DNA of 64,000 bases, taken from positions 225,710 through 289,709 of the forward strand of contig JACPTS010000001.1 of the NCBI GenBank assembly GCA_016192685.1. Direction: 5' to 3'. Position numbers and translations under genes: made by a program. Source of the stretch: Candidatus Harrisonbacteria bacterium (GTDB taxonomy: Bacteria; Patescibacteriota; Minisyncoccia; UBA6257; 02-FULL-45-10c). This document shows, piece after piece, positions 1 to 59,186 of the stretch. A model generated the notes under the pieces. It ran no database searches, was not told where the DNA came from, and saw nothing but the letters and a program-made list of their open reading frames with translations. How positions within the stretch are numbered: position 1 is the first letter of the stretch; each line of letters opens with the position of its first letter.

Positions 1-708
1 CGGCGTTTCATCCACGATAATTTCCACTCCGGTTAAGCGCTCCAAAGTGCGGATATTCCGGCCTTCGCGGCCGATAATCTTGCCCTTTAATTCTTCATTT
101 GGAAGCTGGAACGCGCTGGTAGTAATATCCGCCACATGAGAACGGGCATAACGCTGGATTGCCGTAGTAATAATTTCGGCGCTCTTTTTTTCAATTTCCT
201 CCCGCCGCTCATTTTCCAATTTATTAAGGACAACCAAAAGTTCATTTTTATGCTCATCCTTAACTTTAGCAAGAATTTTTTCCCTGGCTTCATCTAAAGT
301 AAGTTTGGCCGCTTTTTCCAATTCTTTAATTATTTTTGCCCGCAATTCGTCTGTTTCTAATTTAGCGGCTGCCAGGCGTTTTCCTTCTTCTGCCAATCCT
401 GATTTTTCCGAACCAAAATCCGCCAGCTGCTTTTCCAGCTGTTCTTCTTTTTTAATCAGTCGTTCTTCCAATTTATCCAGCTGCAATTTCCGGCTTTTTT
501 CCTCACCCTTAACTTCTTCCAAAAGCTTGGCCGCCCGTTCTTTGGCATCCAAAACTACCTCTTTAGCCTGAGATTTTGATTCTTCCAGCCAATTTTTAAT
601 TTTTTGTTCTGCCGAATCAACTTGCCTTTTAGCAACTGTCTGACGAATAAAATAACCCGCCGCTAATCCCAATACTAAAACCGCCCAAATCAATGGATTT
701 GTTAACAT
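1..708 (-). CDS. rny: Ribonuclease Y, N-terminal part (gene continues past window start)
   Basis: The minus-strand frame is open from an ATG (plus 706-708) to position 1. Translation begins [30 protein letters not shown], an N-terminal TM helix followed by a K/E-rich coiled coil. It ends at the window edge with [24 protein letters not shown], the KH-domain signature of RNase Y. It is absent from the ORF track because no stop lies in the window. Confidence 0.8.
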
Positions 709-815
709 GTATTAAATTGTTTCCCAAGTATTTCATTTTTATTGAATTTGTTAGGAAATTACTTTTAATTAATTATTATATTTCGAAACTTTTCTGTATT
801 ATAATATTAAAGTAT

Positions 816-2366
816 ATGAAACGTCAAGTAATCCTCGCGATTTTAGACGGTTGGGGAATCGGGCCGAAAAATGAATCCAATCCGATCCACACCCAAGGAA
901 CGCCGAATCTTGATTACATCAAGACTGTTTTTTTAACCGGCGCTCTTCAAGCCTCCGGAATTTCCGTCGGCCTGCCCTGGAATGAAGAGGGTAACAGCGA
1001 AGTCGGCCATTTAACCATCGGCGCCGGCAAAGTTATTTACCAACATTACCCGCGCATAACTTTATCAATTCAGGATGGCAGCTTTGCGAAAAATAAAGTT
1101 TTCCTTAACGCCTTTGACCACGCCAAAAAAAATAAAAGCGCCCTAAATTTTGCCGGGCTTCTAACCGAAGGCAACATCCATGCCTCGCTCCAGCACCTTA
1201 CCGCTTTGATTGATTTAGCTAAAAAAAATAAAGTCGGGAAAATAAATCTGCATCTTTTTTCCGATGGCAAAGATAGCGAACCTAAATCCGCAGTCCGAAT
1301 TCTCAAAAAATTAATGGTTGATACTGGCGAGGGGTGGGAAATTGGAAGCTTCTCCGGCAGGCATTACGCCTTAGACCGGGACGGCTATTGGGAACGCACC
1401 CGGCCAACCTACGAAGCAATGACCGGCGCCGGATTGCCAATAAAAAATATCGGCGCGGCCATTAAAGAAGCTTACGGTAAAAATCTTAATGACCAGCAAA
1501 TTAATCCCTATGTCATAAATCCGGAAGCGGCCATCCGGGATAACGACGCGCTCATATTTTTTGATTTTCGGGAAGACAGCATCCGCCAGATTGCTTCCGC
1601 TTTTATCCTGAAAGATTTTAACCAATTCCCCGTAAAACAATTTTCTAATTTATATATTGCGACAATGACTGATTATTCGGATAAATTTACTGTGCCAGTT
1701 GCCTATCCGCCGGAAAAAATTGAGAATCCGCTTGCTAAAATTTTGGCTGACAACGGCAAATCCCAAATCCACATTGCGGAAACGGAAAAATACGCTCATG
1801 TCACTTATTTTTTTAACGGCTATCGCGAACAGCCATTTTCCAATGAATACCGGGTTTTAATACCGTCCAAAAAAGTGGCAAACTACGAAGAAAAACCAAA
1901 AATGCAGGCAAAAGAAGTAACCTCCAGAGCAATCCAGGCAATTGAGGAAGGGGCTTTTGATTTTGTTCTGGTTAACTACGCCAATGGGGATATGATTGCC
2001 CATACCGGAAATTATGAAGCGGCGAAAATTGCCGTTCAAGAAGTGGATGAATCCATCGGAACCATTCTCCGTTCCGCCTTGGCAAACAACGCGGTGCTTA
2101 TAATTACCGCCGACCACGGCAATCTGGAAACTATGCTTAATTCCAAAACCGGAGAAATCACCACTGCCCACGACATCTCACCAGTGCCGATTTATATTGC
2201 CGGCAATGAATTCGTAAAACAAAAAACACCCGCCGAAATTGGATTAGCGGAAAAAGAAACGGTCGGAATTTTATCTGACGTGGCGCCGACGATTTTGGAA
2301 ATAATGAACATCCCCCAACCGCCAGAAATGACCGGTCAAAGCTTAATAAAATTACTACGGGAATAA
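816..2366 (+). CDS. gpmI: 2,3-bisphosphoglycerate-independent phosphoglycerate mutase
   Basis: MKRQVILAILDGWGIGPK... is the canonical iPGM N-terminus (ILDGWG). The ORF is long. The track ORF starts earlier at 693, but the conserved N-terminus begins at the ATG at 816. Confidence 0.85.
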   Translation: MKRQVILAILDGWGIGPKNESNPIHTQGTPNLDYIKTVFLTGALQASGISVGLPWNEEGNSEVGHLTIGAGKVIYQHYPRITLSIQDGSFAKNKVFLNAFDHAKKNKSALNFAGLLTEGNIHASLQHLTALIDLAKKNKVGKINLHLFSDGKDSEPKSAVRILKKLMVDTGEGWEIGSFSGRHYALDRDGYWERTRPTYEAMTGAGLPIKNIGAAIKEAYGKNLNDQQINPYVINPEAAIRDNDALIFFDFREDSIRQIASAFILKDFNQFPVKQFSNLYIATMTDYSDKFTVPVAYPPEKIENPLAKILADNGKSQIHIAETEKYAHVTYFFNGYREQPFSNEYRVLIPSKKVANYEEKPKMQAKEVTSRAIQAIEEGAFDFVLVNYANGDMIAHTGNYEAAKIAVQEVDESIGTILRSALANNAVLIITADHGNLETMLNSKTGEITTAHDISPVPIYIAGNEFVKQKTPAEIGLAEKETVGILSDVAPTILEIMNIPQPPEMTGQSLIKLLRE

Positions 2367-9205: not shown

Positions 9206-12200
9206 TTATATTTTCCTAACTCCTATCCAAATCGGCTGATTTTCTAATTTCGTACTTAATTCAACGTCAAATTTTGCCGATTTCTTAAAAACTAAATCGT
9301 TCGCGCCTACTTCTTTTTTAAGCTTACCGCTATTTCGTTCCCAAATTGCCGTTAATTCTTTTGGCGCCTCAACCATTAAAGCTATTTTATCTTTTGGCAC
9401 ATAATGCGCGTCATGCCGCAAACCCTGAACCATCCGCACTAATTCCCTAACTAGCCCCTCTTCTTTTAATTCCGGCGTTACGATGATATCCAAACCAACT
9501 TCACTCTCTAAATGCTGATTCCATTTCACTTCTTTAACATTAACCTCATCTTTTAAAATTTCCAGCAATTCCGCATCTCTTATATCCAACTTTTGACTTT
9601 TAACTTCTAAACTTTGAAGGGGTTGGCGGACTTTAATGCCTTTTTCCGCCCGCAGTGCCAGCGTCAGACTGGAAAGCCGCCGCACTTCTTCCATTTTTTC
9701 TAAAAGCGTATAGTCAATGGATTTTTTATCTGCTTCCGGCCAATCTTCTAAATGGACTGATTCTTTAGCTTTTAGCTTTGAGCTGTTAGCTTTTAGGGTT
9801 AGGGATTGATAAAGACTTTCGGCAAAAAATGGCGTAAATGGCGCAATCAATTTACTCAATTCCAAAAGACAGCGAAAAAGCGTGGCAGAAACAGACTGGA
9901 AATCTTTTTGGTCTGTTGGGCGCTGAAGCCGAGAGCGTGAACGCCGAATATACCAACGCGACAAATCATCCACGAAAACCTCCAGCGCCTTTCCCGAAGA
10001 GCCGACATCGTATTTTTCTAAATCATCGGTAGTCTTCTGAATAACTTGATTCAATCTTGCCAAAATCCACCCGTCTAAAATATTGTCTATTGTCTGTTGT
10101 CTGTCTGTTATCTGTTTGTCCCCGTATGTCTCAAAGAATACAAACGAATTATAAATAATCATAATAAATTTTCGGAGCGTTTTACCCAAATCCTGCTCAT
10201 CAAACTTTTTCGGTTCTGCCGGCGGATTAATCGTATAAAAATACCAACGCACCGCATCGACGCCATATTTATTCACCATATCCCAAGGACTAACTACATT
10301 GCCCTTAGACTTAGACATTTTTTGGCCGTTTTTATCAAGAACCAAACCAAGGGTAATGACATTTTTATACGGCGGCTCTTCAATTCCCAAAGCCGTAGCA
10401 ACGGCAAGAAGCGTATAGAACCATCCGCGAGTCTGGTCAATGCCCTCGCTAATATAATCTGCCGGAAAATCAATGCACTCCTGTAAAGTCTTTAGTCTTA
10501 AGTCATTAATCTTAAGTTTTTTAGCGCAGCTAAAAGGATAATGATCCTGCGCGAATGGCATTGCCCCGGAATCAAACCAGACATCCGCCACCTCTTTTAC
10601 CCTAACCATTTTCTTTCGGCACTTCGGACAGCGCAAATAAATATTATCCGCGTAAGGCCGATGCAAGTCCAATTCCGCGTTTCTATTATAAGGCCAATTA
10701 TGAAGTTCTACTTGCAAAACTTCGCCATTATTATGGATATAATCGGATTTCAAAATTTCTTCATTTGATAACCCAAGCATCGTCCCTTTAAGCATCCAAA
10801 GCGGTTCGCCGTGGCTAATTATCAAAATATTTTTATCGCTATATTTAGAATTAATATCCAAAACTGCTCCAAGCATCCTTTTTTTAACATCGTTTAAATT
10901 TTCTCCGCCAGGAGGCGTCTTGGTAAATTCTTCTAAGTGATTGTTAAAAAACTTTTTATGTTCTTCAATCAGTTGCCAATTAAAAATACCGCAATTAATT
11001 TCGGCTAAGCGCTTATCAATGATTATTTTTGCCTTGGTGACTTTGGCTACAATTTTAGCGGTTTCTCTGGTGCGAAAATAAGGGGAGGTAAAAATTAAAT
11101 CCAGTTTTTTTCCCTTAAGCAATTTTTTTAAATTTTTGGCGGCTTTTTGAATTTGCTCCTTCCCCTTCTTGGTAAGTTTAGAAATGTTTTTTCCTCTCTC
11201 CGGCCCAGCGGCAATTAAATTAGTTAAATTATGGTCTGATTCGCCATGCCGCAGCAGCCAAAAATTATTTTTAGAAAATCGCAATTTATCTAAATCTTCT
11301 AAGCCGCCGATTACCTCCCGATAATCGCATTTCTCGCATTCCCAAATCGGAAGCGGGGTGCCCCAATAACGATTGCGGGAAATCGCCCAGTCTTTAATTT
11401 CTCTAAGCCACTCGCCGAATCGTCCATCTTTGATATGCTCCGGAATCCAATTAATTTTTCGATTGCCCCTTAAAAGCTCGTCCCGCAGCTGACTCATCTC
11501 CACAAACCAAGAAAATTGGGATAAATATAAAAGCGGAGCATTGCAACGCCAGCAAAATGGATAGTCATGTTCAATAACCGCTCTTTTAAAGAGAATTTTT
11601 CTTTTATCCAAATCATTAATAATATCTTCATCAGCTTTTTTCACAAACTTCCCAGCTCCCGGCAGCCCCCTGGCGACGACGCCTTTCCCATCAATAGTAA
11701 TAGGAATCTGGCCTACTAACTCCTTTTGATACTTCTTAACTAAATTCATATCGTCTTCGCCAAAAGCCGGGGCGATATGGACGAGCCCAGTACCATCTTC
11801 AATAGAAACAAAATCCGCCGGATAAACCTGAAAAAATTTTTTATTTTTAAGCCATGGCCCCCCCACCTTGAACAACGGCTCGTATTTTAAGCCAACTAAT
11901 TTTTTTCCGGAAACTTTTTCTATCACTTCAACTTCTATCCCCGGTTCAACTGGGGGCGCATTATACGACCACAAAAATTCTTTACCAACTCTATACTTTG
12001 TATAAATAAGCTCTGGATTTACCGCCACTGCCACATTGGACGGGAGCGTCCAGGGCGTAGTAGTCCAAACAAGCAAAAATTCTTTTTGTTTGATACTTGA
12101 CACTTGACGCTTGATACGAAACTTAACATAAATCGATGGGTCCTTAACTTTCTGATACACGTCGGGCATACCCAACTCCGCATGGGAAAGCGGCGTCTGG

Positions 12201-12787
12201 CAACGCGGGCAATAAGGAACAATTTTAAAAGATTGAGTTAATAATCCACGTTTAGCAATTTGTTTAAATACCCACCACAAACTTTCTATATATTCCGATT
12301 TATAAGTAATATAAGGATTTTTTAAATCCAGCCAAAAACCGATTCGGTCTGTTAATTTTTCCCACTCGTCCTGATATTTCCAAACCGATGATTTGGCTTT
12401 TTCATTGAATTCGGCAATGCCGAATTTTTCTATATCCTGCTTATTTTTCAAGCCCAGCTCTTTTTCCACTTCAATTTCTACCGGAAGCCCATGAGTATCC
12501 CAACCGGCTTTCCTGCGGACAAAAAACCCGCGCATTGTTTTGAATCGCGGAATCACGTCTTTAAATGCCCGGCTTAAAACATGATGGATTCCCGGTCGGC
12601 CATTGGCAGTCGGCGGACCTTCAAAAAAACGAAAAACCTTTTGTCCGGCTTTTTTAATTTGAGTTTTCTCAAAAATCCGGTTTTCCTTCCAAAATTTCAA
12701 AACTTCCTCCTCAATTTCCGGCAATTTGAATTCTTTAATACCTCTAAGCATATGCTTAATAATAAGGAAAAATTGGGCTATTTTCAA
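9206..12787 (-). CDS. ileS: isoleucine--tRNA ligase (type 2) with an inserted histidine-phosphatase (PGAM-like) domain
   Basis: HIGH-type N-terminus (PPTANGRPGIHHV), KMSKSKGN motif and Zn-binding Cys pairs. Residues about 508-700 carry NNFWLLRHGESDHN ... ILIISHGEP, the RHGE and SHG motifs of the histidine phosphatase superfamily. The more likely start is the second Met, at about 12751. Confidence 0.85.
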   Translation of the reverse strand: MKIAQFFLIIKHMLRGIKEFKLPEIEEEVLKFWKENRIFEKTQIKKAGQKVFRFFEGPPTANGRPGIHHVLSRAFKDVIPRFKTMRGFFVRRKAGWDTHGLPVEIEVEKELGLKNKQDIEKFGIAEFNEKAKSSVWKYQDEWEKLTDRIGFWLDLKNPYITYKSEYIESLWWVFKQIAKRGLLTQSFKIVPYCPRCQTPLSHAELGMPDVYQKVKDPSIYVKFRIKRQVSSIKQKEFLLVWTTTPWTLPSNVAVAVNPELIYTKYRVGKEFLWSYNAPPVEPGIEVEVIEKVSGKKLVGLKYEPLFKVGGPWLKNKKFFQVYPADFVSIEDGTGLVHIAPAFGEDDMNLVKKYQKELVGQIPITIDGKGVVARGLPGAGKFVKKADEDIINDLDKRKILFKRAVIEHDYPFCWRCNAPLLYLSQFSWFVEMSQLRDELLRGNRKINWIPEHIKDGRFGEWLREIKDWAISRNRYWGTPLPIWECEKCDYREVIGGLEDLDKLRFSKNNFWLLRHGESDHNLTNLIAAGPERGKNISKLTKKGKEQIQKAAKNLKKLLKGKKLDLIFTSPYFRTRETAKIVAKVTKAKIIIDKRLAEINCGIFNWQLIEEHKKFFNNHLEEFTKTPPGGENLNDVKKRMLGAVLDINSKYSDKNILIISHGEPLWMLKGTMLGLSNEEILKSDYIHNNGEVLQVELHNWPYNRNAELDLHRPYADNIYLRCPKCRKKMVRVKEVADVWFDSGAMPFAQDHYPFSCAKKLKINDLRLKTLQECIDFPADYISEGIDQTRGWFYTLLAVATALGIEEPPYKNVITLGLVLDKNGQKMSKSKGNVVSPWDMVNKYGVDAVRWYFYTINPPAEPKKFDEQDLGKTLRKFIMIIYNSFVFFETYGDKQITDRQQTIDNILDGWILARLNQVIQKTTDDLEKYDVGSSGKALEVFVDDLSRWYIRRSRSRLQRPTDQKDFQSVSATLFRCLLELSKLIAPFTPFFAESLYQSLTLKANSSKLKAKESVHLEDWPEADKKSIDYTLLEKMEEVRRLSSLTLALRAEKGIKVRQPLQSLEVKSQKLDIRDAELLEILKDEVNVKEVKWNQHLESEVGLDIIVTPELKEEGLVRELVRMVQGLRHDAHYVPKDKIALMVEAPKELTAIWERNSGKLKKEVGANDLVFKKSAKFDVELSTKLENQPIWIGVRKI

Positions 12788-12793
12788 ACAAAA

Positions 12794-12811
12794 AACCGCT
12801 GAAAAGCGGTT
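12794..12811 (-). terminator. rho-independent terminator (aaccgct gaaa agcggtt, T-run on minus strand)
   Basis: A 7-bp stem followed by ttttttgtttg on the minus strand, directly after the stop of the 95-aa gene. Confidence 0.55.
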
Positions 12812-13097
12812 AGGTATAAACTCCGTCTCTTGATTGCTGAATTATTTTCATAAGCTCACGCGTTGCATACTCTGAATATACCAAATCAATCGGCGGAAAA
12901 TCGCCACACATCGGATTCTTTCTCAAAAGCCATTTCACGGTTGCTTCTTCAGATTTAAATTCCAAAAGGGCTGAAACAACCTGCATAAGCCTTCTTTGTT
13001 TAGAGCGTTCCATCGGTCCCAAATTCGAAACCTGAAGATTCTGCAGTTTCACCACAATACCCAGCGCCGCATCTTTCATTTCCAATTCCATTTTCAT
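12810..13097 (-). CDS. MbcA/ParS/Xre-type antitoxin-like protein (DUF2384 C-terminal domain); no toxin partner detected
   Basis: The C-terminus ATVKWLLRKNPMCGDFPPIDLVYSEYATRELMKIIQQSRDGVY matches the DUF2384 signature (A..WL..pN..LgG..P.dl..t..G...v...l). The rho-independent terminator at 12794-12811 lies immediately downstream on the minus strand. Confidence 0.45.
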   Translation of the reverse strand: MKMELEMKDAALGIVVKLQNLQVSNLGPMERSKQRRLMQVVSALLEFKSEEATVKWLLRKNPMCGDFPPIDLVYSEYATRELMKIIQQSRDGVYT

Positions 13098-13180: not shown

Positions 13181-14749
13181 TCACATTTTTTTGAGTTTAC
13201 TAATGCCAAGAATATCAAAAAGGTTTTCTAAAATTATTTTAGTGGCGGAAACTAACGCTAAACGGGATTGCTCTAAATTTTTATCGCCAAAGCCGATTAC
13301 TCTCTCTTTTTCATAAAAATTATGGAATGCTTTTGCTAGTTCCGTCGCGTATCTGGTTAACCGATGGACTTGGTAATCTTCCGCGGTCTGCGCCAAAACA
13401 TCCGGCAATTTCACCAACTCTAACATTAACTTAACCTCCGAATCTGATTTCAAAAGTCGTAAGTCGTAAGTCGTAAGTCGTAAGTTAGCGCGTTTTAATA
13501 TATTTAAAACGCGTACGTAAGCATATTGCGCGTAATAAACCGGATTTTTCTGCGACCGCTCTTTAGCCAAATCCAAATCAAAATCCATGTGGGTATCCAA
13601 AGAATGCATCAAAAAGAAAAACCGCGCGGCATCTTTACCCGCCGTAGCCTTAGCGGAGGAGGGCGCGCCAACTTCTTTTAAAAGCTCATCTAAAGTAATA
13701 AACTCGCCCTTTCTTTTAGACATTTTCACTTCTTTCCCGCCGCTTACCAAACGCACTAATTGAGTAATTAAAATCTTAAGCCGTTCCGGTTTTACGCCCA
13801 ATGCCTCAATGCCCTTTTTCATTCTTTGGGCATAGCCATGGTGGTCCGCGCCCCAAATATCAATCGCTAAATTAAATTTCCTTTTTAAAAATTTATCGTA
13901 ATGATAAGCTAAGTCCGCCAAAAAATAAGTCGGGTTGCCGTCTGATTTTATAAGCACGCCATCGCCAAGCCACAAAGCCCCGTCCTTTTTTTCAACTAGC
14001 CCCTTCTTTTCTAAAAACTGCAAGGTTTTTTTAAGCTCTCCTTTTTTATGTAAATTCTTCTCTTCTGAAAACCAAACATCGTGCTTAATCCCCGCGCTTT
14101 TCAGTGATGCCTTTATTGATTTTAATAAAATAGTGGTCGCTTGTTTAGCTGATTTATCTTTTAATTTTTTTATATAATCTCCTTGATAGTATTCTTCTTT
14201 CCAAGGAATTTTCCCTGCGACTGCTAAAATGCTCTCTCCCAGTAGTTTTATCTGATTGCCGGTATCGTTTATATAATATTCCCGCGTCACTTTATGCCCA
14301 GCATTTTCTAAAACATTCGCCAAAACATCACCATAAAATCCGCTCCGGCCATTAGCCATTGTCAGCGGGCCGGTTGGGTTAGCAGAAACGAATTCTAAAT
14401 TTATTTTTTGAGCGCGTAGTCCATAGGTTGTAGAGCGTAGATTTCCGTATTTATTTTTCTTTTTTAAAATTTCTTTCAATTCTTTTTGTAGAATTTCCGG
14501 CTTCAGCCAAAAATTAATAAAGCCAGGCGCAACTGCCTCAACTTTACTAAACACATTTGACTTTTGACCTTTGACATTTAACTCAATCTCTTTGGCAACC
14601 GCCATCGGCGATTTCTTCAAAACCGGCGCCAACTTAAAAGCCGCATTTGTGGAATAATGCCCAAAATCTTCTTTCTCGCTCGCCGAGACGTTAAAATCAA
14701 CTTCTGTCCCAACGGCCTTTTTAATCTCTTTTTTTATAAACTCAAGCAT
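13181..14749 (-). CDS. argS: arginine--tRNA ligase
   Basis: 522 aa with the ArgRS N-terminal add-1 domain pattern. A class I HIGH-like region, PTGPLTMANGRSG. An in-frame (gtcgtaa)x4 tandem repeat at 13455-13485. Confidence 0.85.
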   Translation of the reverse strand: MLEFIKKEIKKAVGTEVDFNVSASEKEDFGHYSTNAAFKLAPVLKKSPMAVAKEIELNVKGQKSNVFSKVEAVAPGFINFWLKPEILQKELKEILKKKNKYGNLRSTTYGLRAQKINLEFVSANPTGPLTMANGRSGFYGDVLANVLENAGHKVTREYYINDTGNQIKLLGESILAVAGKIPWKEEYYQGDYIKKLKDKSAKQATTILLKSIKASLKSAGIKHDVWFSEEKNLHKKGELKKTLQFLEKKGLVEKKDGALWLGDGVLIKSDGNPTYFLADLAYHYDKFLKRKFNLAIDIWGADHHGYAQRMKKGIEALGVKPERLKILITQLVRLVSGGKEVKMSKRKGEFITLDELLKEVGAPSSAKATAGKDAARFFFLMHSLDTHMDFDLDLAKERSQKNPVYYAQYAYVRVLNILKRANLRLTTYDLRLLKSDSEVKLMLELVKLPDVLAQTAEDYQVHRLTRYATELAKAFHNFYEKERVIGFGDKNLEQSRLALVSATKIILENLFDILGISKLKKM

Positions 14750-15845: not shown

Positions 15846-16286
15846 ATGAAACCATTATCCGAAAACCGAAAAGCGAGGTTTGATTATGAAATTTTAGAGA
15901 CCTATGAAGCTGGGATTGTTTTAACTGGCCAGGAGGTGAAATCAATAAAAGCCGGCCGGGCAAATTTAACCGGCTCATTCGTAGTAATAAAACCAGATGG
16001 AGCGTCTTTGTTAAATACTCAAATTCCGCCTTATCAGCCTAAAAACACACCGGCCGATTATAAACCGGATAGAACCCGCCAACTGCTTTTAAATAAAAAA
16101 GAGCTTAATTATCTTTTTGGAAAAACTAAAGAAGGTTTGACGATTGTACCGCTTTCCATCTATAATAAAGGTCGCCGAATTAAACTCTCTATCGGCCTCG
16201 CCCGACACAAGAAAAAACAGGATAAAAGGGAAACTATAAAGGAAAGAGAATTTAAAAGGGAGCAAGGAAGAACATTAAAAGAATAA
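15846..16286 (+). CDS. smpB: SsrA-binding protein
   Basis: RKARFDYEILETYEAGIVLTGQEVKSIK... is canonical SmpB. tmRNA lies immediately downstream. Confidence 0.9.
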   Translation: MKPLSENRKARFDYEILETYEAGIVLTGQEVKSIKAGRANLTGSFVVIKPDGASLLNTQIPPYQPKNTPADYKPDRTRQLLLNKKELNYLFGKTKEGLTIVPLSIYNKGRRIKLSIGLARHKKKQDKRETIKEREFKREQGRTLKE

Positions 16287-16634
16287 GGGGGTGTAAAGCT
16301 TCGACAATTTATCTTCTATCAGATTTGCAAGCCGAGCTGAATTAACTCGCAAAACTAATTCAAAATAATAAGTGCAAACTTATTCAATCGTCAGCCAGCT
16401 TACGCTTTAGCATAACTGGCCATTGTTCAGCCAAAGCTTGATAGGTTGATAAACAATGTCATTAATCAAGCTCTGCCTTGATAAGCCGAGTGTCAAAGCG
16501 AATCACAATCGGCAAAAGATCTTTGGTATTTTGTTGAATTTTAGCCTTAGATCTTAAACAATAATTCAACTAAGCTTGTAGAAAATTTGATAGTAATAAT
16601 TTGGACGCGGGTGCAATTCCCGCCACTTCCACAA
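16287..16634 (+). ncRNA. ssrA: tmRNA (SsrA)
   Basis: The 5' end gggggtgtaaagcttcgac and 3' end ggacgcgggtgcaattcccgccacttcca form a tRNA-like domain. The internal tag frame is gca aac tta ttc aat cgt cag cca gct tac gct tta gca taa, reading ANLFNRQPAYALA*. Length is about 348 nt. It sits directly after smpB. Confidence 0.85.
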
Positions 16635-16673: not shown

Positions 16674-17171
16674 TTGATTAGAACTAACGAAAAAATAACC
16701 GCTTTGGAATTGCGGGTCATTGGAGAAGATGGGTCAAATATCGGTGTTTTGCCGCTTGCGGAAGCGTTGAAAATGGCTAAAGAAAGAGGGTTGGATCTTA
16801 TTGAAATCGCGCCAACAGCCAAACCGCCAGTCGGAAAAATAATGAGCTATGACAAATACCGCTATCAAGAAACCAAAAAACTCAAAAAACAGCGCGCCGG
16901 GACAAAAACCCAAGAGTTAAAAGGGGTGAGAATCAGCGCCCGGGCCGCCGAACACGACCTTCAAGTAAAAGCGAATAAAGTAAATGAGTTTTTAAATGAA
17001 GGCCATATAGTGGAAATCCAATTAGTAATGCGCGGTCGGGAAAAAGCTAACCGGGACTGGGCTAGGCAAAAATTATTGGATTTTATAAAAATGATTATTC
17101 CGGAACATAAAGTATTGCTGGAGCCAAAATATAGTTTTAGGGGATTTAATATGCAAGTAGTGAAGAAATAA
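16674..17171 (+). CDS. infC: translation initiation factor IF-3 (TTG start)
   Basis: ELRVIGEDGSNIGVLPLAEALKMAKERGLDLIEIAPTAKPPV is conserved IF-3. The start is non-ATG (TTG), typical for infC. It is followed by rpmI and rplT. Confidence 0.85.
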   Translation: MIRTNEKITALELRVIGEDGSNIGVLPLAEALKMAKERGLDLIEIAPTAKPPVGKIMSYDKYRYQETKKLKKQRAGTKTQELKGVRISARAAEHDLQVKANKVNEFLNEGHIVEIQLVMRGREKANRDWARQKLLDFIKMIIPEHKVLLEPKYSFRGFNMQVVKK

Positions 17172-18244: not shown

Positions 18245-20026
18245 TTATTTTAACATTTTAAGCATTTTTTCCAATGGCCAGGCATTGATAATATCTTTTT
18301 TTTCACCCCACCCTCGCCTCGCCTGCGCGATCCCATATTCCAGCCATTCAAAATGGGAAACAGAATGGGAATCAGAATTAATTGCCATTTTTACTCCTTG
18401 CTCCACGCATTTTCTGATATATTCATCTTTCAAATCAGCGCGGTCCGAAGCATTGATTTCTAAAATAGTGCCAGTTTTTTTAGCATGGCGGATTAATTCT
18501 TCCATATCAACATCATACGGCTGGCGTTTATTTAAAATCCGGCCAGTAGGATGAAAAATAATGTCTACATGCGGATTACTCATTGCCCGCTTAATCCTTT
18601 CTGTCTGTTCTTTTTTAGGTAAATTAAAAAGCGAATGCACTGAAGCCCCGACCACTTCGCACTTCGCCAAAATCTCATCCGGCAAATCCATTGAGCCGTC
18701 TTTTAAAATATCACATTCGGTGCCCCTTAAAACACGAAACTTAATACCCGAAACACGAAACTTTTTATTTACTTTATCAATTTCCAGCCACTGCTTTTGT
18801 ATCCGCTTTTCGTCCAAGCCATTAGTCATTGCCAAACGCTTGGTATGGTCAGTAATCGCAATATATTCTAAACCAGCGTCAAGCGCGGCTTCTGCCATTT
18901 CTTCTATAGAATTTGCGCCGTCGGTCCAATTCGTTTGAATCTGCAAATCGCCCTTTAAATCGCCGTAGCCAACTAAATTTGGAAGTTTTTCAACACGAGA
19001 AGCTTCAATTTCACCAGTCATTTCTCTCAACTCCGGTTCAATATAAGCTAATCCAAGCGCTTTATATAAATCTTCCTCGCTGCGACCGGCAATCTGCTTC
19101 TTGCCTTTAAATAATCCGTATTCACTAAGCTTATAACCTTTATCAATTGCCATGCGGCGCAATTCTACATTATGGTCTTTGGAGCCGGTAAAATAATTTA
19201 GCCCCGAGCCGTAAGATTCTTCCGGCAAAACCCGTAAATCCATATCTAAGCCGTTTTTCAATTTCACCGCTGATTTTGTCTCGCCATGCGCAAAAACCCT
19301 CGCCACTTCCGGCATAGACACAAAATAATCCATTATTTTACCCGCCGTAGCTTTACTTTGTCCGTCCGAAGCTTTACGCGAAGGAGGAGCGGAGGCGGGC
19401 AGGCTTTCATCAATGGTAATTAAAATATCCGCATCGCCGATAGTGTCTTTCCGCCGCCGCACCGAACCGGCAACGGCAATCTTTTTTACGCCGGGTAATT
19501 TTTTCAGGCGCGCTTCAATCTCCCGGATTTGCGGCATCACCAATCCTAAAACAAACCGGCCGCCCGATTTTCTTAAAAACTCCAAACTCTTTAAGATATT
19601 TTCTTCGCTTTTAACCCCAAATCCTTTCAAGTTGCGAATCCTTCCACTAGCCAAAGCTTTTTCCAAATCACGCAGTCCACGAATCCCTAATTTTGCATAA
19701 AGAGTTTTTAGAGTCTTTGGCCCCAATCCTTGAATTCCTTGAAAATCTTTAAGGCGGATCGGGATTTTTTTGCTAAGCTGTTCGTGAAATTTTACCTTTC
19801 CAGTTTTAATCGCCTCCTCAATTTTTTCCGCAATAGAAACCCCCACCCCGGGAATTTCTTCCAAAGCCTTCAGTCCTCCTTTTTTATAAATTTCTTTAAC
19901 CTCTTCATTTAAGTTAGCAACCACCTCGGCAACTTTTTCATAAGCCCGCGGCTTAAATGGCACGTCCTGCATTTCAAGATAAATGCCAATCTCGCCTAAA
20001 ATTTTAGCAATTTCCTGATTGGTCAT
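18245..20026 (-). CDS. polX: DNA polymerase/3'-5' exonuclease PolX (Pol beta-like plus PHP domain)
   Basis: 593 aa with an N-terminal HhH/Pol-beta-like region and a C-terminal PHP domain. It contains an in-frame acacgaaac-type tandem repeat. Confidence 0.8.
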   Translation of the reverse strand: MTNQEIAKILGEIGIYLEMQDVPFKPRAYEKVAEVVANLNEEVKEIYKKGGLKALEEIPGVGVSIAEKIEEAIKTGKVKFHEQLSKKIPIRLKDFQGIQGLGPKTLKTLYAKLGIRGLRDLEKALASGRIRNLKGFGVKSEENILKSLEFLRKSGGRFVLGLVMPQIREIEARLKKLPGVKKIAVAGSVRRRKDTIGDADILITIDESLPASAPPSRKASDGQSKATAGKIMDYFVSMPEVARVFAHGETKSAVKLKNGLDMDLRVLPEESYGSGLNYFTGSKDHNVELRRMAIDKGYKLSEYGLFKGKKQIAGRSEEDLYKALGLAYIEPELREMTGEIEASRVEKLPNLVGYGDLKGDLQIQTNWTDGANSIEEMAEAALDAGLEYIAITDHTKRLAMTNGLDEKRIQKQWLEIDKVNKKFRVSGIKFRVLRGTECDILKDGSMDLPDEILAKCEVVGASVHSLFNLPKKEQTERIKRAMSNPHVDIIFHPTGRILNKRQPYDVDMEELIRHAKKTGTILEINASDRADLKDEYIRKCVEQGVKMAINSDSHSVSHFEWLEYGIAQARRGWGEKKDIINAWPLEKMLKMLK

Positions 20027-23808: not shown

Positions 23809-24801
23809 TTAGATTTCAAAATTCTTTACTATAATCCGACGAAGCCTATACGCATTTCCGTGCTGTATGAGTCCCAAATAAGAATTCAGGGTTTCTTTTG
23901 TTGGGTGTTCTTTTATTCTCTTCATCATTCTTCTTTTGGCGATGGTTCGTAAAATTCGGTGGTCAGGAAAATTCACCCAGCCAAGAAAATCCACTCCAGA
24001 ATAGAGGGTTTTAATAAATACTTTATTAGGATGCAATTCTAGCTCTAATTTATTTTGTAAAAATTCTTGTATTTGAGGAATTAAATTTTCCAGCCAATTT
24101 CTATTTTCAGAAAACACCACAAAATCATCAGCGTAGCGGATATAATATTTAACTTTTTGTTGATGCTTCATAAACTGGTCAAATTCATTCATATAAATAT
24201 TCACCAAAAGCTGCGAGGTGAGGTTACCGAGCGGCAAACCGATTCCCGCCTTAGTGGAAGAAAAACTATCAATTACTTCATCAAGTAGGCGTAAAATATC
24301 CAGATCTGGAATATAAACTTGTAAAATTCGTTTCAAAACAATATGGTCAATGCTGGCAAAGAATTTCTTAATATCACACTTTAATATCCAGCAGGTTTTA
24401 GTATTATTTTGGCTGACCTTATAAGCAAGCGAACGAAAGCGGTTAATAGCTTTATGAGTTCCCTTGTTTAGGCGGCAGGAATATGAATCAGCGATAAATA
24501 CTCTATCAAAAAATGGATAGAGTATCCGATAAATTGCGTGATGTAATAGGCGGTCTCGGACACTCGCCTTATGGATATTACGCGGCTTGGGGTCGCAAAT
24601 ATTAAAGGCCTGATAACCGCCATGAGTATAAGTATGGTTGCTAAATTCTTGGTGAAGCGATAGGATATTATCCATTAAGTTAAAAGAGAATTCCTGAACG
24701 TCTTGTTTTCTTCTTTTTCCTCGCACAAACTCTTTCCACGCTTCTAATAAATTCTCTGCGCTAATTATATCTTCAAATTTATGAGTCAATTGAATTTTCA
24801 T
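23809..24801 (-). CDS. DGR-type reverse transcriptase
   Basis: RT motifs are present: YIRYADDFVVFS (YxDD) and the DGR-diagnostic motif-4 variant LPLGNLTSQLLVNIYM, which is (I/L)GxxxSQ rather than QGxxxSP. 330 aa. Confidence 0.9.
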   Translation of the reverse strand: MKIQLTHKFEDIISAENLLEAWKEFVRGKRRKQDVQEFSFNLMDNILSLHQEFSNHTYTHGGYQAFNICDPKPRNIHKASVRDRLLHHAIYRILYPFFDRVFIADSYSCRLNKGTHKAINRFRSLAYKVSQNNTKTCWILKCDIKKFFASIDHIVLKRILQVYIPDLDILRLLDEVIDSFSSTKAGIGLPLGNLTSQLLVNIYMNEFDQFMKHQQKVKYYIRYADDFVVFSENRNWLENLIPQIQEFLQNKLELELHPNKVFIKTLYSGVDFLGWVNFPDHRILRTIAKRRMMKRIKEHPTKETLNSYLGLIQHGNAYRLRRIIVKNFEI

Positions 24802-24920
24802 AATTTTTCTTCTAATAAGACCCCCCCCAACGGAATTTAATAATTATTACAAAATTAATCGCTGCATACAAAATCTGGCAGGAGTTTTTTATTCATTTTC
24901 CGAAAACTTCTCGTTACACA

Positions 24921-25163
24921 TTGGGGTCTAAAATTGATTCTTTATTTATTGAAACTATTGAATTGATTTTTCAAGCAAGTTATTCAAGTAAAGAACAAAA
25001 GAGTGTTTACTTTCAAAAATCATCTTCTAAATTTGACTTGCTTAAATTTTTCTTACAAGTTTCATGGGAAATTAAAACTTTGGATAATAAAAAATATATT
25101 ATCCTTTCAGAAAAATTAAATGAGGTTGGAAAAATATTAGGCGGATTGATTAAACAGCTATAA
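24921..25163 (+). CDS. avd: Avd-like accessory protein (four-helix-bundle / IVS-protein family), opposite strand to the RT
   Basis: The C-terminal half, FLQVSWEIKTLDNKKYIILSEKLNEVGKILGGLIKQL, matches Avd/23S-IVS proteins. The frame is open upstream to 24819 and there encodes ...YKIWQEFFIHFPKTSRYTLG (Avd helix 1-2), but with no canonical start codon. The track start is TTG at 24921. Confidence 0.5.
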   Translation: MGSKIDSLFIETIELIFQASYSSKEQKSVYFQKSSSKFDLLKFFLQVSWEIKTLDNKKYIILSEKLNEVGKILGGLIKQL

Positions 25164-25170
25164 AAACAAA

Positions 25171-25192
25171 CTCCCCCGCAACGCGGGGAGAG
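25171..25192. terminator. GC-rich hairpin (ctccccgc...gcggggag) flanking the TR and after the avd stop
   Basis: The hairpin is followed by tttgttttta on the minus strand, which places a terminator directly after the TR transcript end. Confidence 0.4.
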
Positions 25193-25205
25193 AATGAAGC
25201 GATTA

Positions 25206-25323
25206 GCAGAAGACGAACTGGTTGTCTTCGTTCCAGACGTTGTCGGGGTTGCCGTAGTTGCTGTTCAGCCACCGTCCGTTGTCATCGTGCTTCACGTTGA
25301 ACAGCTTCAAGTTGCCGTCCGAA
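25206..25323 (-). repeat. DGR template repeat (TR)
   Basis: A 118-bp repeat homologous to 25613-25730. On the minus strand it is rich in AAC codons (..GGC AAC TTG AAG CTG TTC AAC GTG AAG ... AAC AGC AAC TAC GGC AAC CCC GAC AAC ...). All 17 differences from the VR are at TR adenines. Confidence 0.85.
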
Positions 25324-25545
25324 TCAGTAATGTATAGCACGCCTTCCATTCCACTGCTCCTTGAATGCTCTCGGAGCTGCATCTAATTCGGCATCTTATA
25401 TGCCCTAGCATACTATACCAAGTAGCTTCATTTTTTAGGAATTAAAATTTTTAATCCCGGAGTTCAACGGTCTAAAGCCGTAACCGTAGACGCATTATTT
25501 ACTATCCAAAATTATACTAACAATTAAAATCTGATTTGAAAATAG

Positions 25546-25581
25546 AAATGCCTCGCAAGAGCAAGCTCTTGCGAGGCATTT
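25546..25581. promoter_or_regulatory. perfect 16-bp stem / 4-nt loop hairpin about 30 nt 3' of the VR (candidate DGR target-recognition hairpin and/or target-gene terminator)
   Basis: aaatgcctcgcaagag-caag-ctcttgcgaggcattt. It lies 25 nt downstream of the target stop on the minus strand. Confidence 0.5.
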
Positions 25582-25606
25582 TTCCAGCGGTCCAGCAGAC
25601 CCGAAG

Positions 25607-26266
25607 CTACTTGCAGAAGACGAACCGGTAGACTCCGTCCCAGACGAAGTCGGGGTCGCCGTAGTAGCTGCTCAGCCACCGTCCGCTGACATCGTGCCCC
25701 ACGCTGAACAGCCTCAAGTAGCCGTCCGAAGCAGCGATTGGCTCCATCGCGACGACAAGCCATTCGCCGTAAGGCTGGTCCGAATACTGCAGACGAAGCT
25801 GAGGACCGACCTCTACCGGACACTTCTTCAGTCCGCGCTCTTCTGCGCGCTGGATGATCTCCTGAAAAGGAGCTTGATCCTTGCCAGTCAGCTCCTTGAC
25901 TGAGACCTTGACCAGTTCCACGGTTTCCTGGTTCGCCGCCGTAAAGGCTGACTTACCAAGAATGTCGTTCGCCCAGTCGCTAATCCTGTATCCGCCAACC
26001 TTGAGAGCATGGCGGAAGTCATCAGCGGTCTTGAGGTCGGTGCCGAGCTTGATGGTTTTCCAGGTTGGGAAGCCACATCTCTCAGCCCCTTTCTTTACGA
26101 AGGGATTGCGGTGCTCAATCAAGGCTTGGACGTGGCGCGAGTTCAATGCCCCACGCTTCATCTGTCCCCTGATTTCCTTCGTTTGCGCATCCAGCTTCTC
26201 ATACATCTCAAGGAGCTGGTCTGAGGTCGGCTTTTGATCCGAACCCACGACGATTTTTTTGGTCAT
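25607..26266 (-). CDS. DGR target protein (219 aa) with C-terminal VR-encoded ligand-binding (C-type-lectin-like) region; no N-terminal signal peptide evident
   Basis: The ORF ends exactly at the VR (..VFCK*). Its N-terminus, MTKKIVVGSDQKPTSDQLLEMYEK..., is hydrophilic. GC content is much higher than the window average. The other ORFs listed in this region are alternative frames of the same GC-rich DNA. Confidence 0.75.
   Translation of the reverse strand: MTKKIVVGSDQKPTSDQLLEMYEKLDAQTKEIRGQMKRGALNSRHVQALIEHRNPFVKKGAERCGFPTWKTIKLGTDLKTADDFRHALKVGGYRISDWANDILGKSAFTAANQETVELVKVSVKELTGKDQAPFQEIIQRAEERGLKKCPVEVGPQLRLQYSDQPYGEWLVVAMEPIAASDGYLRLFSVGHDVSGRWLSSYYGDPDFVWDGVYRFVFCK
25613..25730 (-). 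repeat. DGR variable repeat (VR) at the 3' end of the target gene
   Basis: It encodes ...SDGYLRLFSVGHDVSGRWLSSYYGDPDFVWDGVYRFVFCK*. It differs from the TR at 17 positions, for example AAC>TAC/AGC/GAC/TTC, AAG>AGG/GGG, GAA>GGA and CAG>CGG. Every difference is at a TR adenine and none at any other base. Confidence 0.85.
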
Positions 26267-58995: not shown

Positions 58996-59186
58996 TTTAA
59001 GTATTTATTATTTTTAGTAGCAGTTATAGTACCTGTTAATTCTGTGGAAAAGCGGATTTTAAAATCAATTTAGAAGAAGCCGCGAAGAATAAGCTAGGAA
59101 TTTTATGGGTAATATCTGTTGATAAATATTAATAATTTATTTGTCCAGATTTTTTATTAACCGACTTAAGACAAATAACTAACAAC

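What the first reader, a model, noticed from the sequence alone, without database searches (positions are those of the whole stretch)
10688..11266. Histidine-phosphatase (PGAM-like) domain inserted inside isoleucyl-tRNA synthetase
The insert sits between the conserved WGTPLPIWECEKC segment and the HRPYADNIYLRCPKC zinc-finger segment of IleRS. About 190 aa there carry the catalytic motifs of the histidine phosphatase superfamily: LLRHGESDHN (RHGE) and IISHGEP (SHG). Canonical type-2 IleRS has only a short linker here. An enzymatic phosphatase domain embedded in an aminoacyl-tRNA synthetase is not a standard architecture. It could act on a phosphorylated intermediate or nucleotide, or be a regulatory module.
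Basis: partly seen in the sequence, partly recalled or inferred. Interest (0 to 1): 0.65.

Follow-up and report, generated by a model that had tools for sequence, protein, structure and literature searches.

The report
Phosphatase domain inside isoleucyl-tRNA synthetase
The isoleucyl-tRNA synthetase of an uncultured Parcubacteria-type bacterium has a complete, apparently active histidine-phosphatase enzyme spliced into a surface loop; hundreds of related species share this, valyl-tRNA synthetases of other candidate phyla repeat it, and I found no paper describing it.

Summary
ORF 9206-12751 (-) is a type-2 isoleucyl-tRNA synthetase (IleRS; TIGR00392, 877 bits). About 205 residues (window 10673-11287) replace a 10-residue loop of the zinc-bearing CP3 subdomain and form a full His_Phos_1 domain (E 6e-34; AF2 pLDDT 93-97; TM 0.76 to PhoE).

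The catalytic residues Arg501, His502, Arg560 and His647 are invariant and Glu584 is Glu or Asp in 120 homologues (54-100% identical). The same holds in all 224 embedded copies examined.

The architecture is clade-wide in Parcubacteria. 370 GTDB species carry a relative, and all 80 inspected are inside IleRS.

In sister lineages the closest relatives are separate ~190-aa genes. 47 of 53 sampled lie directly between argS and an insert-less ileS, in the same syntenic block as the window.

Rarer IleRS carry tandem or second- and third-site copies. ValRS of Gracilibacteria and Peregrinibacteria carry 1-4 copies, mostly at the equivalent CP3 site.

It is not the glycolytic mutase: the window encodes an iPGM, and every phosphatase equivalog model scores below cut-off.

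Most likely this is a bifunctional enzyme whose active phosphomonoesterase is a dedicated IleRS partner. The substrate is unknown, and no literature description was found.

The parts
9206..12751 (-). ileS: type-2 isoleucyl-tRNA synthetase with an internal phosphatase domain (1181 aa from ATG 12751; the mechanical ORF starts at TTG 12787)
   Evidence: TIGR00392 877 bits. Best solved relatives are 1ILE (7e-238) and IleRS2 8C8W. AF2 model has pLDDT 91.8 and pTM 0.86. Fold matches are 8C8V and 1ILE.
11288..12751 (-). IleRS N-terminal part (aa 1-488): first Rossmann half with the HIGH-type motif PGIHH, the CP1 editing domain (TTTPWTLP, HIAPAFGEDD), CP2, the WGTPLPIW strand and the N-arm of CP3
   Evidence: Aligns to Tth IleRS 3-477. 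The editing and synthetic motifs are invariant in 118 homologues.
10673..11287 (-). The inserted segment (aa 489-693): a complete His_Phos_1 histidine-phosphatase domain plus short linkers
   Evidence: Replaces Tth residues 478-487. PF00300 E 6e-34. The stand-alone model has pLDDT 93.8 and TM 0.76 to PhoE 1H2E. Insert length is 197-214 aa in all 120 homologues.
11246..11251 (-). Arg501-His502 of the RHG motif; His502 is the predicted phospho-accepting nucleophile
   Evidence: Present in 120/120 homologues. R and H are present in every embedded copy that reaches this column.
11072..11074 (-). Arg560, the second phosphate-pocket arginine (SPYxRT motif)
   Evidence: 120/120 and 205/205 CP3 copies.
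11000..11002 (-). Glu584, the predicted general acid
   Evidence: 117 Glu and 3 Asp of 120.
10811..10813 (-). His647, the second catalytic histidine (SHG motif)
   Evidence: 120/120.
11327..11338 (-). Cys472 and Cys475: N-terminal half of the CP3 zinc knuckle (ECEKC)
   Evidence: Cys in 110 and 95 of 120 homologues. Tth IleRS CP3 carries a zinc motif (PMC7191050).
10619..10630 (-). Cys708 and Cys711: C-terminal half of the CP3 zinc knuckle (CPKC)
   Evidence: 120/120 each.
9209..10672 (-). IleRS C-terminal part (aa 694-1181): CP3 C-arm, DVWFDSG strand, KMSKS (10307-10321), anticodon-binding domain and DUF5915 C-terminal domain
   Evidence: Aligns to Tth IleRS 488-821. PF08264 and PF19302 hits.
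12759..12811 (-). Terminator-like hairpin (12794-12811) followed by a promoter-like TTGAAA-17-TATTAT (12759-12787), directly before the ATG of ileS
   Evidence: Consensus scan only; not tested.
13181..14749 (-). argS, the conserved upstream neighbour. In sister lineages the free phosphatase gene lies between argS and ileS.
   Evidence: ORF. argS is upstream in 47 of 80 related loci. The order argS-hp-ileS is seen.
12810..13097 (-). 95-aa ORF occupying the argS-ileS gap, where sister lineages have the free phosphatase gene; it is not a remnant of that gene
   Evidence: No Pfam hit. No tblastn similarity to the stand-alone phosphatases.

Best explanation
The gene encodes one polypeptide with two enzymes.

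The host is a complete, functional-looking type-2 IleRS. Its synthetic site, CP1 editing site, KMSKS and anticodon-binding domain are all intact.

From the distal loop of the zinc-bearing CP3 subdomain buds an autonomous ~200-residue histidine phosphatase of the small PhoE/PspA/CobC type. By inference from the superfamily mechanism, it should hydrolyse a phosphate monoester or terminal phosphate through a phospho-His502 intermediate. Arg501, Arg560 and His647 would hold the phosphate, and Glu584 would protonate the leaving group.

The domain is the internalised form of a dedicated partner gene. In sister Parcubacteria the same phosphatase is a separate gene wedged between argS and ileS. In the window's clade that gene is gone from the gap and sits inside ileS.

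I think the phosphatase is functionally tied to the synthetase rather than a random passenger. It would be kept at 1:1 stoichiometry and in cis.

My best guess at its role has low confidence (about 0.25) and is pure inference. It may remove a small nucleotide-type product of the activation and editing cycle, such as PPi, AMP or ApnA-derived nucleotides. IleRS and ValRS are the two synthetases with the heaviest editing-driven ATP turnover. The substrate itself is unknown.
For: Shown:
- Domain identity and fold.
- Clean replacement of a 10-aa CP3 loop.
- Intact IleRS motifs, invariant in 118 homologues.
- Arg501, His502, Arg560 and His647 invariant and Glu584 Glu or Asp in 120 homologues and in 224 embedded copies.
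- Insert pairwise identity of 0.505, similar to the anticodon-binding (0.56) and C-terminal (0.48) domains, which indicates purifying selection.
- 370 GTDB species carry a relative, and all 80 inspected are embedded in IleRS.
- All 120 closest IleRS carry PF00300.

Evidence for linkage to IleRS:
- 5 of 6 stand-alone relatives looked up lie immediately upstream of an insert-less ileS.
- In a metagenome sample, 47 of 53 stand-alone copies have ileS directly downstream. 43 of those 47 also have argS directly upstream. The other 27 loci are CP3-embedded.
- The window keeps the same IF3-SmpB / argS-ileS block.
- Insertions occur at two further sites of IleRS and as tandem pairs. Copies within one protein are only 24-37% identical.
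- 70 of 120 ValRS relatives in Gracilibacteria/Peregrinibacteria carry 1-3 copies, 69 of them at the CP3-equivalent site.
- A HIT nucleotide-hydrolase gene lies between hp and ileS in a Moranbacteria operon.
Against: - No activity was measured.
- The nearest characterised relatives are metabolic phosphatases with no link to translation: PspA phosphoserine phosphatase, PhoE, CobC and a riboflavin-pathway HFP.
- CP3 may simply be a permissive loop. Adjacency of hp to ileS could also explain why it landed in IleRS without any functional coupling.
- Insert-less valS genes have no hp neighbour.
- I could not obtain model coordinates. The distance and orientation of His502 relative to the adenylate site or the tRNA path are therefore unknown.
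- By topology (own reasoning), the CP3 tip and the second insertion site lie towards the N-terminal ends of the Rossmann strands, away from the catalytic cleft. This argues against direct channelling.
- A neighbour-joining tree of the domain copies did not resolve how many insertion events occurred.
Confidence: 0.55

Rival explanations
1. Passenger or co-expression model. The domain is an active housekeeping phosphatase, for example for a phospho-amino acid, sugar phosphate or cofactor precursor. Its chemistry has nothing to do with tRNA charging. It began as an operon neighbour of ileS and was captured in a loop that tolerates insertions. It persists because it guarantees expression with an essential gene in a minimal genome.
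For: - The closest characterised and solved relatives are metabolic phosphatases.
- CP3 is variable among IleRS (PMC7191050).
- The same permissive site is used in ValRS.
- Gene adjacency gives a trivial route into ileS.
- The insert evolves faster than the catalytic core: 0.505 against 0.70-0.75 pairwise identity.
Against: - The close family was found essentially only beside or inside ileS, or inside valS.
- There are at least three different insertion sites in IleRS plus two in ValRS.
- Up to four catalytically intact copies occur in one ValRS. This is hard to explain by hitch-hiking alone.
Confidence: 0.3
2. RNA-end phosphatase. The domain removes a 3'- or 2'-phosphate from damaged or processed tRNA ends, so that the synthetase can charge them in cis.
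For: - It is tethered to a tRNA-binding enzyme.
- A His-phosphatase is fused to a nucleic-acid enzyme in the RNase H/acid phosphatase family PRK07238, the second-best NCBIfam hit.
Against: - No member of the superfamily among the hits is an RNA-end phosphatase.
- There is no reason for restriction to tRNA-Ile and tRNA-Val.
- The geometry relative to the CCA end is unknown.
Confidence: 0.07
3. Non-catalytic module. The fold is kept as a structural brace, a phosphate- or tRNA-binding surface, or a metabolite sensor that regulates IleRS allosterically.
For: It is inserted next to the active-site half of the Rossmann fold, and the full-length model has high pTM (0.86), which suggests a fixed orientation.
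Against: Pseudo-enzymes normally lose catalytic residues. Here the nucleophile His, both Arg and the second His are kept in every copy that reaches those columns, and the acid is Glu or Asp in all but two of about 224 embedded copies.
Confidence: 0.05
4. It is the organism's cofactor-dependent phosphoglycerate mutase (the literal PGAM reading), fused to IleRS.
For: The best NCBIfam hit is the archaeal small dPGM model NF038349, at 88.8 bits.
Against: - That score is far below the 225-bit cut-off.
- TIGR01258 matches only the N-terminal 80 residues, at 42.7 bits against a cut-off of 81.7.
- The motif after the acid is E-I-N-C-G rather than the ERHYG of classical dPGM (sequence, plus my own knowledge of dPGM).
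- The window itself encodes a cofactor-independent PGM at 693-2366.
Confidence: 0.02
5. Assembly chimera or frameshift artefact.
For: The window comes from an uncultured organism, and GC dips to 0.34 across the insert.
Against: - The same in-frame architecture occurs in hundreds of independent assemblies from many studies.
- Junction residues are conserved.
- The low GC is explained by the Lys/Asn/Ile-rich composition.
Confidence: 0.01

Closest known systems
Type-2 (eukaryote/Thermus-like, mupirocin-resistant) isoleucyl-tRNA synthetase, e.g. T. thermophilus IleRS (1ILE) and Priestia megaterium IleRS2 (8C8V)
   Same: Whole host scaffold: Rossmann fold, CP1 editing domain, CP2, zinc-bearing CP3, KMSKS, anticodon-binding and C-terminal domains. 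E 7e-238 to 1ILE. TM 0.92 (1ILE) and 0.82 (8C8V), normalised to the target.
   Different: Those enzymes have a 10-residue loop where this protein has a 205-residue enzyme domain. No solved IleRS has anything there.
Small branch-1 histidine phosphatases: PhoE/YhfR of Bacillus stearothermophilus (1H2E, 1EBB), PspA phosphoserine phosphatase of Hydrogenobacter (4IJ5), CobC
   Same: Size (~200 aa), fold (TM 0.76, 23-27% identity) and all catalytic residues.
   Different: Those are free-standing enzymes of metabolism. This domain scores below the cut-off of every equivalog model (PspA 71 vs 350, CobC 79 vs 163), so its substrate cannot be transferred from them. It is embedded in another enzyme.
Stand-alone Parcubacteria His_Phos_1 genes in the argS-hp-ileS-recO operon (e.g. 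P0016, P0019, P0041)
   Same: 37-46% identical to the insert for the named examples (44-50% for the best stand-alone hits), with the same motifs. Always adjacent to ileS in the same syntenic block as the window.
   Different: Separate polypeptide. The neighbouring IleRS (957-987 aa) has a 15-20 aa CP3 linker and is only ~40% identical to the window's IleRS.
Bifunctional proteins containing a His-phosphatase domain: PFK-2/FBPase-2 and the mycobacterial RNase H/acid phosphatase (PRK07238, Rv2228c-type)
   Same: A catalytically active branch-1 His phosphatase fused to a second enzyme.
   Different: Those are end-to-end fusions. Here the phosphatase is nested inside the partner's catalytic domain, and the partner is an aminoacyl-tRNA synthetase.
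IleRS with another extra enzyme domain: NCBIfam NF040702 'isoleucine--tRNA ligase, N-acetyltransferase domain-containing'
   Same: Precedent that IleRS can carry an additional catalytic domain. The model name appears.
   Different: It has a different added domain (GNAT). The window protein scores 284 against a cut-off of 1999, so it is not a member. I did not examine where the GNAT domain sits.

Membership tests
Isoleucyl-tRNA synthetase (TIGR00392 ileS) | Whole-protein score above the curated cut-off | tested here: met
   877.3 bits against a cut-off of 621.4, in two stretches flanking the insert.
Isoleucyl-tRNA synthetase (TIGR00392 ileS) | Class I signature motifs (HIGH-type and KMSKS) and CP1 editing-site residues | tested here: met
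   PGIHH at aa 53-57, with H57 invariant. KMSKS at 811-815, with K811, S813 and K814 invariant. The WTTTPWTLP and HIAPAFGEDD editing motifs are invariant in 118 homologues.
Type-2 IleRS (IleRS2) | Closer to Thermus / IleRS2 / eukaryotic enzymes than to IleRS1, with a DUF5915-type C-terminus instead of the IleRS1 zinc-binding domain | tested here: met
   1ILE 7e-238 and IleRS2 8C8W 2e-221, against IleRS1 8C9F 6e-101 and 1FFY 3e-91. PF19302 hit. The fold ranking agrees.
Histidine phosphatase superfamily, branch 1 (PF00300) | Profile match above the gathering score over nearly the full domain | tested here: met
   117.9 bits against 21.7; profile positions 1-181 of 194.
Histidine phosphatase superfamily, branch 1 (PF00300) | Catalytic core: RHG Arg and His, second Arg, second His, acidic proton donor | tested here: met
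   R501, H502, R560, H647 and E584 are present. The first four are invariant across 120 homologues and the last is E or D.
Histidine phosphatase superfamily, branch 1 (PF00300) | Alpha/beta PGAM fold | tested here: met
   AF2 model with pLDDT 93.8. Foldseek gives PhoE 1H2E at E 1e-13 and TM 0.76.
Histidine phosphatase superfamily, branch 1 (PF00300) | Phosphatase or mutase activity through a phospho-histidine intermediate | not testable with these tools
   Needs an enzyme assay.
2,3-BPG-dependent phosphoglycerate mutase (TIGR01258 / NF038349) | Score above the curated cut-off | tested here: not met
   TIGR01258 42.7 against 81.7, N-terminal 80 aa only. NF038349 88.8 against 225. The genome has an iPGM at 693-2366.
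PspA phosphoserine phosphatase (NF045917), CobC alpha-ribazole phosphatase (TIGR03162), SixA (TIGR00249) | Score above the curated cut-off | tested here: not met
   71.5 against 350; 79 against 162.9; 38.1 against 74.5.
Intein or other self-excising insert | Nucleophile (C/S/T) at both junctions and a His-Asn before the C-junction | tested here: not met
   The junctions read ...LEDLD|KLRFS... and ...NRNAE|LDLHRPY.... There is no intein or endonuclease Pfam hit.

The most novel reading that the evidence does not exclude
This phosphatase family is a previously unrecognised, dedicated accessory of the two editing-intensive class Ia synthetases (IleRS, ValRS) in Patescibacteria. It has been recruited repeatedly: as an operon partner, as a CP3 insert, at other sites, and in arrays of up to four copies. 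It would act in cis on a product of the activation and proofreading cycle, such as PPi, AMP or ApnA-type nucleotides, or on a phosphorylated tRNA end. That would make it a new built-in step in how these minimal cells drive or police aminoacylation.
Probability: 0.25. Interest if true: 0.85.

Novelty: new variant of a known kind. Interest (0 to 1): 0.68.

Why it matters
Aminoacyl-tRNA synthetases are among the best-studied enzymes. New catalytic domains inside their Rossmann fold are rare; CP1 editing is the classic case.

Here a second enzyme that looks catalytically competent has been nested in the catalytic domain of an essential synthetase. It has been kept for a long evolutionary time in a large part of the Candidate Phyla Radiation. 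The same solution recurs in ValRS and at other sites.

If the phosphatase is coupled to aminoacylation or proofreading, it would reveal a new accessory activity of translation in minimal, symbiotic cells. It would also give a rare functional handle on CPR-specific biology.

If it is only a passenger, it is still a clean natural example of gene-into-gene domain insertion. Both the 'before' state (the argS-hp-ileS operon) and the 'after' state are preserved in sister lineages.

Practically, these proteins are named only 'class I tRNA ligase family protein' in NCBI annotation of the relatives seen here. A dedicated family model would improve that annotation.

Tried and rejected
- **Literature.** Eight full-text searches combined IleRS, aaRS, CPR, Parcubacteria and Patescibacteria with histidine phosphatase, phosphoglycerate mutase, His_Phos_1, domain insertion and pyrophosphatase. 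None returned a paper describing this architecture.
- **AlphaFold database search.** The afdb50 search of the full model was unavailable.
- **Model coordinates.** They are not exposed. I could not measure how the phosphatase pocket faces the adenylate site or the tRNA.
- **Domain tree.** A neighbour-joining tree of 213 domain copies gave no clean separation of embedded and free forms. The number of insertion events is unresolved.
- **Remnant of the free gene.** I looked for one in the argS-ileS gap of the window and found none.
- **A second paralogue.** None exists in the 64 kb window or within 4 kb of 80 related ileS genes.
- **hp beside insert-less valS.** None was found in the Gracilibacteria-type and Peregrinibacteria genomes checked.
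- **Regulatory RNA upstream.** Rfam at gathering threshold found only tmRNA and two tRNAs in the window.
- **Readings rejected.** Intein, glycolytic dPGM, pseudo-enzyme and assembly-chimera readings were considered and rejected (see rivals and membership tests).
- **P0255 lineage.** I first suspected it was non-CPR because of its purine and DAHP genes. A Moranbacteria contig has similar genes, so I make no taxon claim.
Full report
**1. What is in the window**

The minus strand carries one uninterrupted ORF at 9206-12787. A terminator-like hairpin and a TTGAAA-17-TATTAT site lie immediately before the ATG at 12751. I therefore number the protein from that Met (1181 aa).

Pfam finds tRNA-synt_1 in two pieces (E 8.5e-114), Anticodon_1 and DUF5915. 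Between the two synthetase pieces it finds His_Phos_1, with E 2.7e-32.

NCBIfam calls the host ileS: TIGR00392 scores 877 bits against a cut-off of 621.

**2. Where exactly the insert sits**

Against T. thermophilus IleRS (1ILE, E 7e-238), query 3-488 aligns to Tth 3-477 and query 694-1039 aligns to Tth 488-821. So about 205 residues (aa 489-693, window 10673-11287) replace ten.

The flanks are the two Cys-x-x-Cys half-sites (C472/C475 and C708/C711) of the zinc knuckle. [quoted passage not shown]

Insert-less IleRS from other Parcubacteria have a 15-20 residue linker at the same point.

The full-length AF2 model is confident (pLDDT 91.8, pTM 0.86), and the insert blocks score 93-97. It superposes on IleRS2 8C8V and on 1ILE (TM 0.82 and 0.92, normalised to the target). 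About 200 query residues have no counterpart in any solved synthetase.

The host is type 2. It is closer to 1ILE and IleRS2 than to IleRS1 (8C9F 6e-101, 1FFY 3e-91).

**3. What the insert is**

Modelled alone it gives pLDDT 93.8. It matches the small branch-1 histidine phosphatases: PhoE 1H2E (E 1e-13, TM 0.76), PspA 4IJ5/4IJ6, a riboflavin-pathway HFP 9MMH, CobC and GpgP. Sequence search ranks the same group.

Every equivalog model is far below its cut-off:
- dPGM_arch: 88.8 against 225
- CobC: 79 against 163
- PspA: 71.5 against 350
- SixA: 38 against 74.5

So the superfamily and fold are certain, but the substrate cannot be transferred from any of these.

It is not the glycolytic mutase. 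TIGR01258 matches only the first 80 residues and stays below its cut-off. The window also encodes a cofactor-independent PGM at 693-2366 (PF01676 and PF06415, E 4e-72).

**4. Is it an active enzyme?**

I examined 120 full-length homologues that are 54-100% identical overall. Arg501, His502, Arg560 and His647 are present in 120/120. Glu584 is E in 117 and D in 3. Glu617 and Gly588 are also invariant.

The IleRS synthetic and editing motifs are equally invariant. The host therefore looks like a working synthetase, and the phosphatase does not replace editing.

Mean pairwise identity of the insert is 0.505. This lies between the anticodon-binding domain (0.56) and the C-terminal domain (0.48), and below the Rossmann core (0.70-0.75). 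That pattern fits purifying selection on a peripheral domain. It speaks against a pseudo-enzyme.

**5. How widespread it is**

All 120 best hits to the full protein carry PF00300 together with the IleRS domains. Named sources are Harrisonbacteria, Zambryskibacteria, Liptonbacteria, Minisyncoccota and 'Parcubacteria group'.

In one genome per GTDB species, 370 loci encode a relative matching the motif [VIT][SG]HGDPLWx[LM]. The best 80 come from Harrison-, Colwell-, Lipton-, Brenner-, Wolfe- and Jorgensenbacteria, Paceibacter and similar groups. All 80 lie inside long IleRS ORFs.

The closest named relatives (69-75% identical) are Harrisonbacteria and an unclassified Patescibacteria bacterium. 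Harrisonbacteria belong to the Patescibacteria/Parcubacteria group.

NCBI names these proteins only 'class I tRNA ligase family protein'.

**6. Where it came from**

The insert's best non-IleRS relatives are ~190-aa free-standing proteins of Parcubacteria, 44-50% identical.

Of six looked up, five lie immediately upstream of an insert-less ileS (957-987 aa) on the same strand, with gaps of 5-50 nt, or about 500 nt where a HIT gene intervenes. The usual order is (L20-L35-IF3-SmpB, divergent) argS-hp-ileS-recO. The sixth is next to recO.

A pattern-based sample of 80 metagenome loci gave 53 free copies and 27 CP3-embedded copies. Of the free copies, 47 have ileS directly downstream, two more are cut by contig ends, and one has ileS 945 nt away. 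Of the 47, 43 have argS directly upstream.

The window has the same block: IF3 at 16674-17171, SmpB at 15846-16286, tmRNA, then argS at 13181-14749 and ileS. argS is upstream in 47 of 80 related loci, and no free hp lies within 4 kb.

The gap between argS and ileS now holds an unrelated 95-aa ORF and no remnant of hp.

I infer that an operon partner was internalised into the CP3 loop of its neighbour. The mechanism of that move is not shown. The two IleRS groups are only ~40% identical, so gene replacement may also have been involved.

**7. Variations on the theme**

An exhaustive profile search found 266 cluster representatives at E <= 1e-30. Among the best 150, most are IleRS with the CP3 insert or fragments of such, and 49 are free-standing copies. 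Several carry more than one copy:
- Tandem pairs in CP3 (P0300, P0241, P0329). The first copies are orthologous to each other, and so are the second copies.
- A second site between DVWFDSG and KMSKS (P0236, P0255, P0292).
- A third site after KMSKS and before the anticodon-binding domain (P0255, P0264, P0292, P0306).

Copies within one protein are only 24-37% identical. These are therefore old events, not assembly repeats. All copies keep R-H-R-E-H.

P0196 is a ValRS fragment with four copies. Searching with it showed that 70 of the 120 best ValRS relatives, named Gracilibacteria or Peregrinibacteria, carry 1-3 copies. Of those copies, 69 sit at the CP3-equivalent position and 9 sit before the WGH strand. 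Some of these proteins lie on contigs above 1 Mb.

Insert-less valS genes have no hp neighbour.

**8. How it most likely works**

*Shown.* There are two intact catalytic centres in one chain. The phosphatase is an autonomous domain at the tip of CP3.

*Inferred from the superfamily mechanism.* His502 attacks a terminal phosphate. Arg501, Arg560 and His647 bind it. Glu584 protonates the leaving group, and the phospho-enzyme is then hydrolysed.

*Inferred from genomics.* The family is dedicated to IleRS, and in other lineages to ValRS. It occurs as an operon partner, as an insert at several sites, and in arrays.

*My guess at the role.* Its substrate may be a small by-product of the activation and editing cycle, such as PPi, AMP or ApnA-type nucleotides. 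IleRS and ValRS are the most editing-burdened synthetases. One operon also places a HIT nucleotide hydrolase between hp and ileS. I give this only about 0.25.

The main rival, at about 0.3, is an unrelated housekeeping phosphatase captured in a permissive loop next to its operon neighbour.

By topology (own reasoning), the CP3 tip and the second site lie nearer the N-terminal ends of the Rossmann strands than the catalytic cleft. I therefore do not claim channelling. I could not measure the geometry because model coordinates are not exposed.

**9. Novelty**

Eight full-text searches found no description of this architecture. No solved synthetase contains it.

The sequences and their Pfam hits are already in public databases, so the architecture is 'seen' but not interpreted.

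Extra domains on synthetases are a known phenomenon; NCBIfam even has an IleRS-with-GNAT model. A nested, active histidine phosphatase, with its recurrent multi-site, multi-host and multi-copy pattern, is a new variant of that kind.

**10. Verdict**

The function is unresolved but testable. Interest is 0.68.

Noticed in passing
window 23809-26266 (-): A diversity-generating retroelement. It has a reverse transcriptase ORF at 23809-24801 (RVT_1, E 9e-24), a 132-nt template repeat at 25196-25327, and a variable repeat at 25603-25734 at the C-terminal end of target ORF 25607-26266. 19 of the 21 differences fall on adenines of the template copy.
   Followed up: partly
protein ids P0196, P0342-P0459 (not in the window): ValRS of Gracilibacteria and Peregrinibacteria often carry 1-3 His_Phos_1 domains, and four in the fragment P0196. 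These proteins are 965-1626 aa, against about 830-1000 aa for most of those without. Most copies sit at the CP3-equivalent site and some sit before the WGHRIP strand. All copies checked (those of the fragment P0196) keep the catalytic residues.
   Followed up: partly
protein ids P0255, P0264, P0292, P0306, P0236, P0300, P0241, P0329; locus L083: Some IleRS variants (1379-1468 aa) have two phosphatase domains. These occur in tandem in CP3, between DVWFDSG and KMSKS, or after KMSKS before the anticodon-binding domain. P0255 has a normal CP3 and uses only the other two sites.
   Followed up: partly
loci L089 5611-6063 and L090 4995-5447: In a Moranbacteria-type operon, a HIT/DcpS_C nucleotide-hydrolase gene lies between the free phosphatase gene and ileS (argS-x-hp-HIT-ileS-recO). 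It was not seen in the 47 ileS-linked metagenome loci.
   Followed up: partly
window 693-2366 (+): A cofactor-independent phosphoglycerate mutase (Metalloenzyme plus iPGM_N). It matters here because it makes a glycolytic role for the IleRS insert unnecessary.
   Followed up: yes
window 12810-13097 (-): A 95-aa ORF with no Pfam match fills the argS-ileS gap, where sister lineages have the free phosphatase gene. A terminator-like hairpin follows it.
   Followed up: partly
window 15846-16632 (+): SmpB lies directly followed by the tmRNA gene (tag peptide ANLFNRQPAYALA), then IF3 at 16674-17171. This is the same block that flanks argS in sister lineages.
   Followed up: no
window 57886-60539 (-): dnaN and dnaA are adjacent, so the chromosomal replication origin is probably near 60.6 kb. 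The origin itself was not examined.
   Followed up: no
window 18245-20026 (-) and 42641-44116 (-): There is a family X DNA polymerase with a PHP domain. There is also a 491-aa family A polymerase consisting of the polymerase domain only, with no 5'-3' exonuclease part in the same ORF.
   Followed up: no
protein id P0010 (2.1 kb contig) and P0001: P0010 joins the C-terminal half of an IleRS-type phosphatase insert to an MraY-like glycosyltransferase. P0001 is a 140-aa piece of an IleRS insert called as its own gene. Both are probably frameshifts or chimeras rather than real architectures.
   Followed up: no
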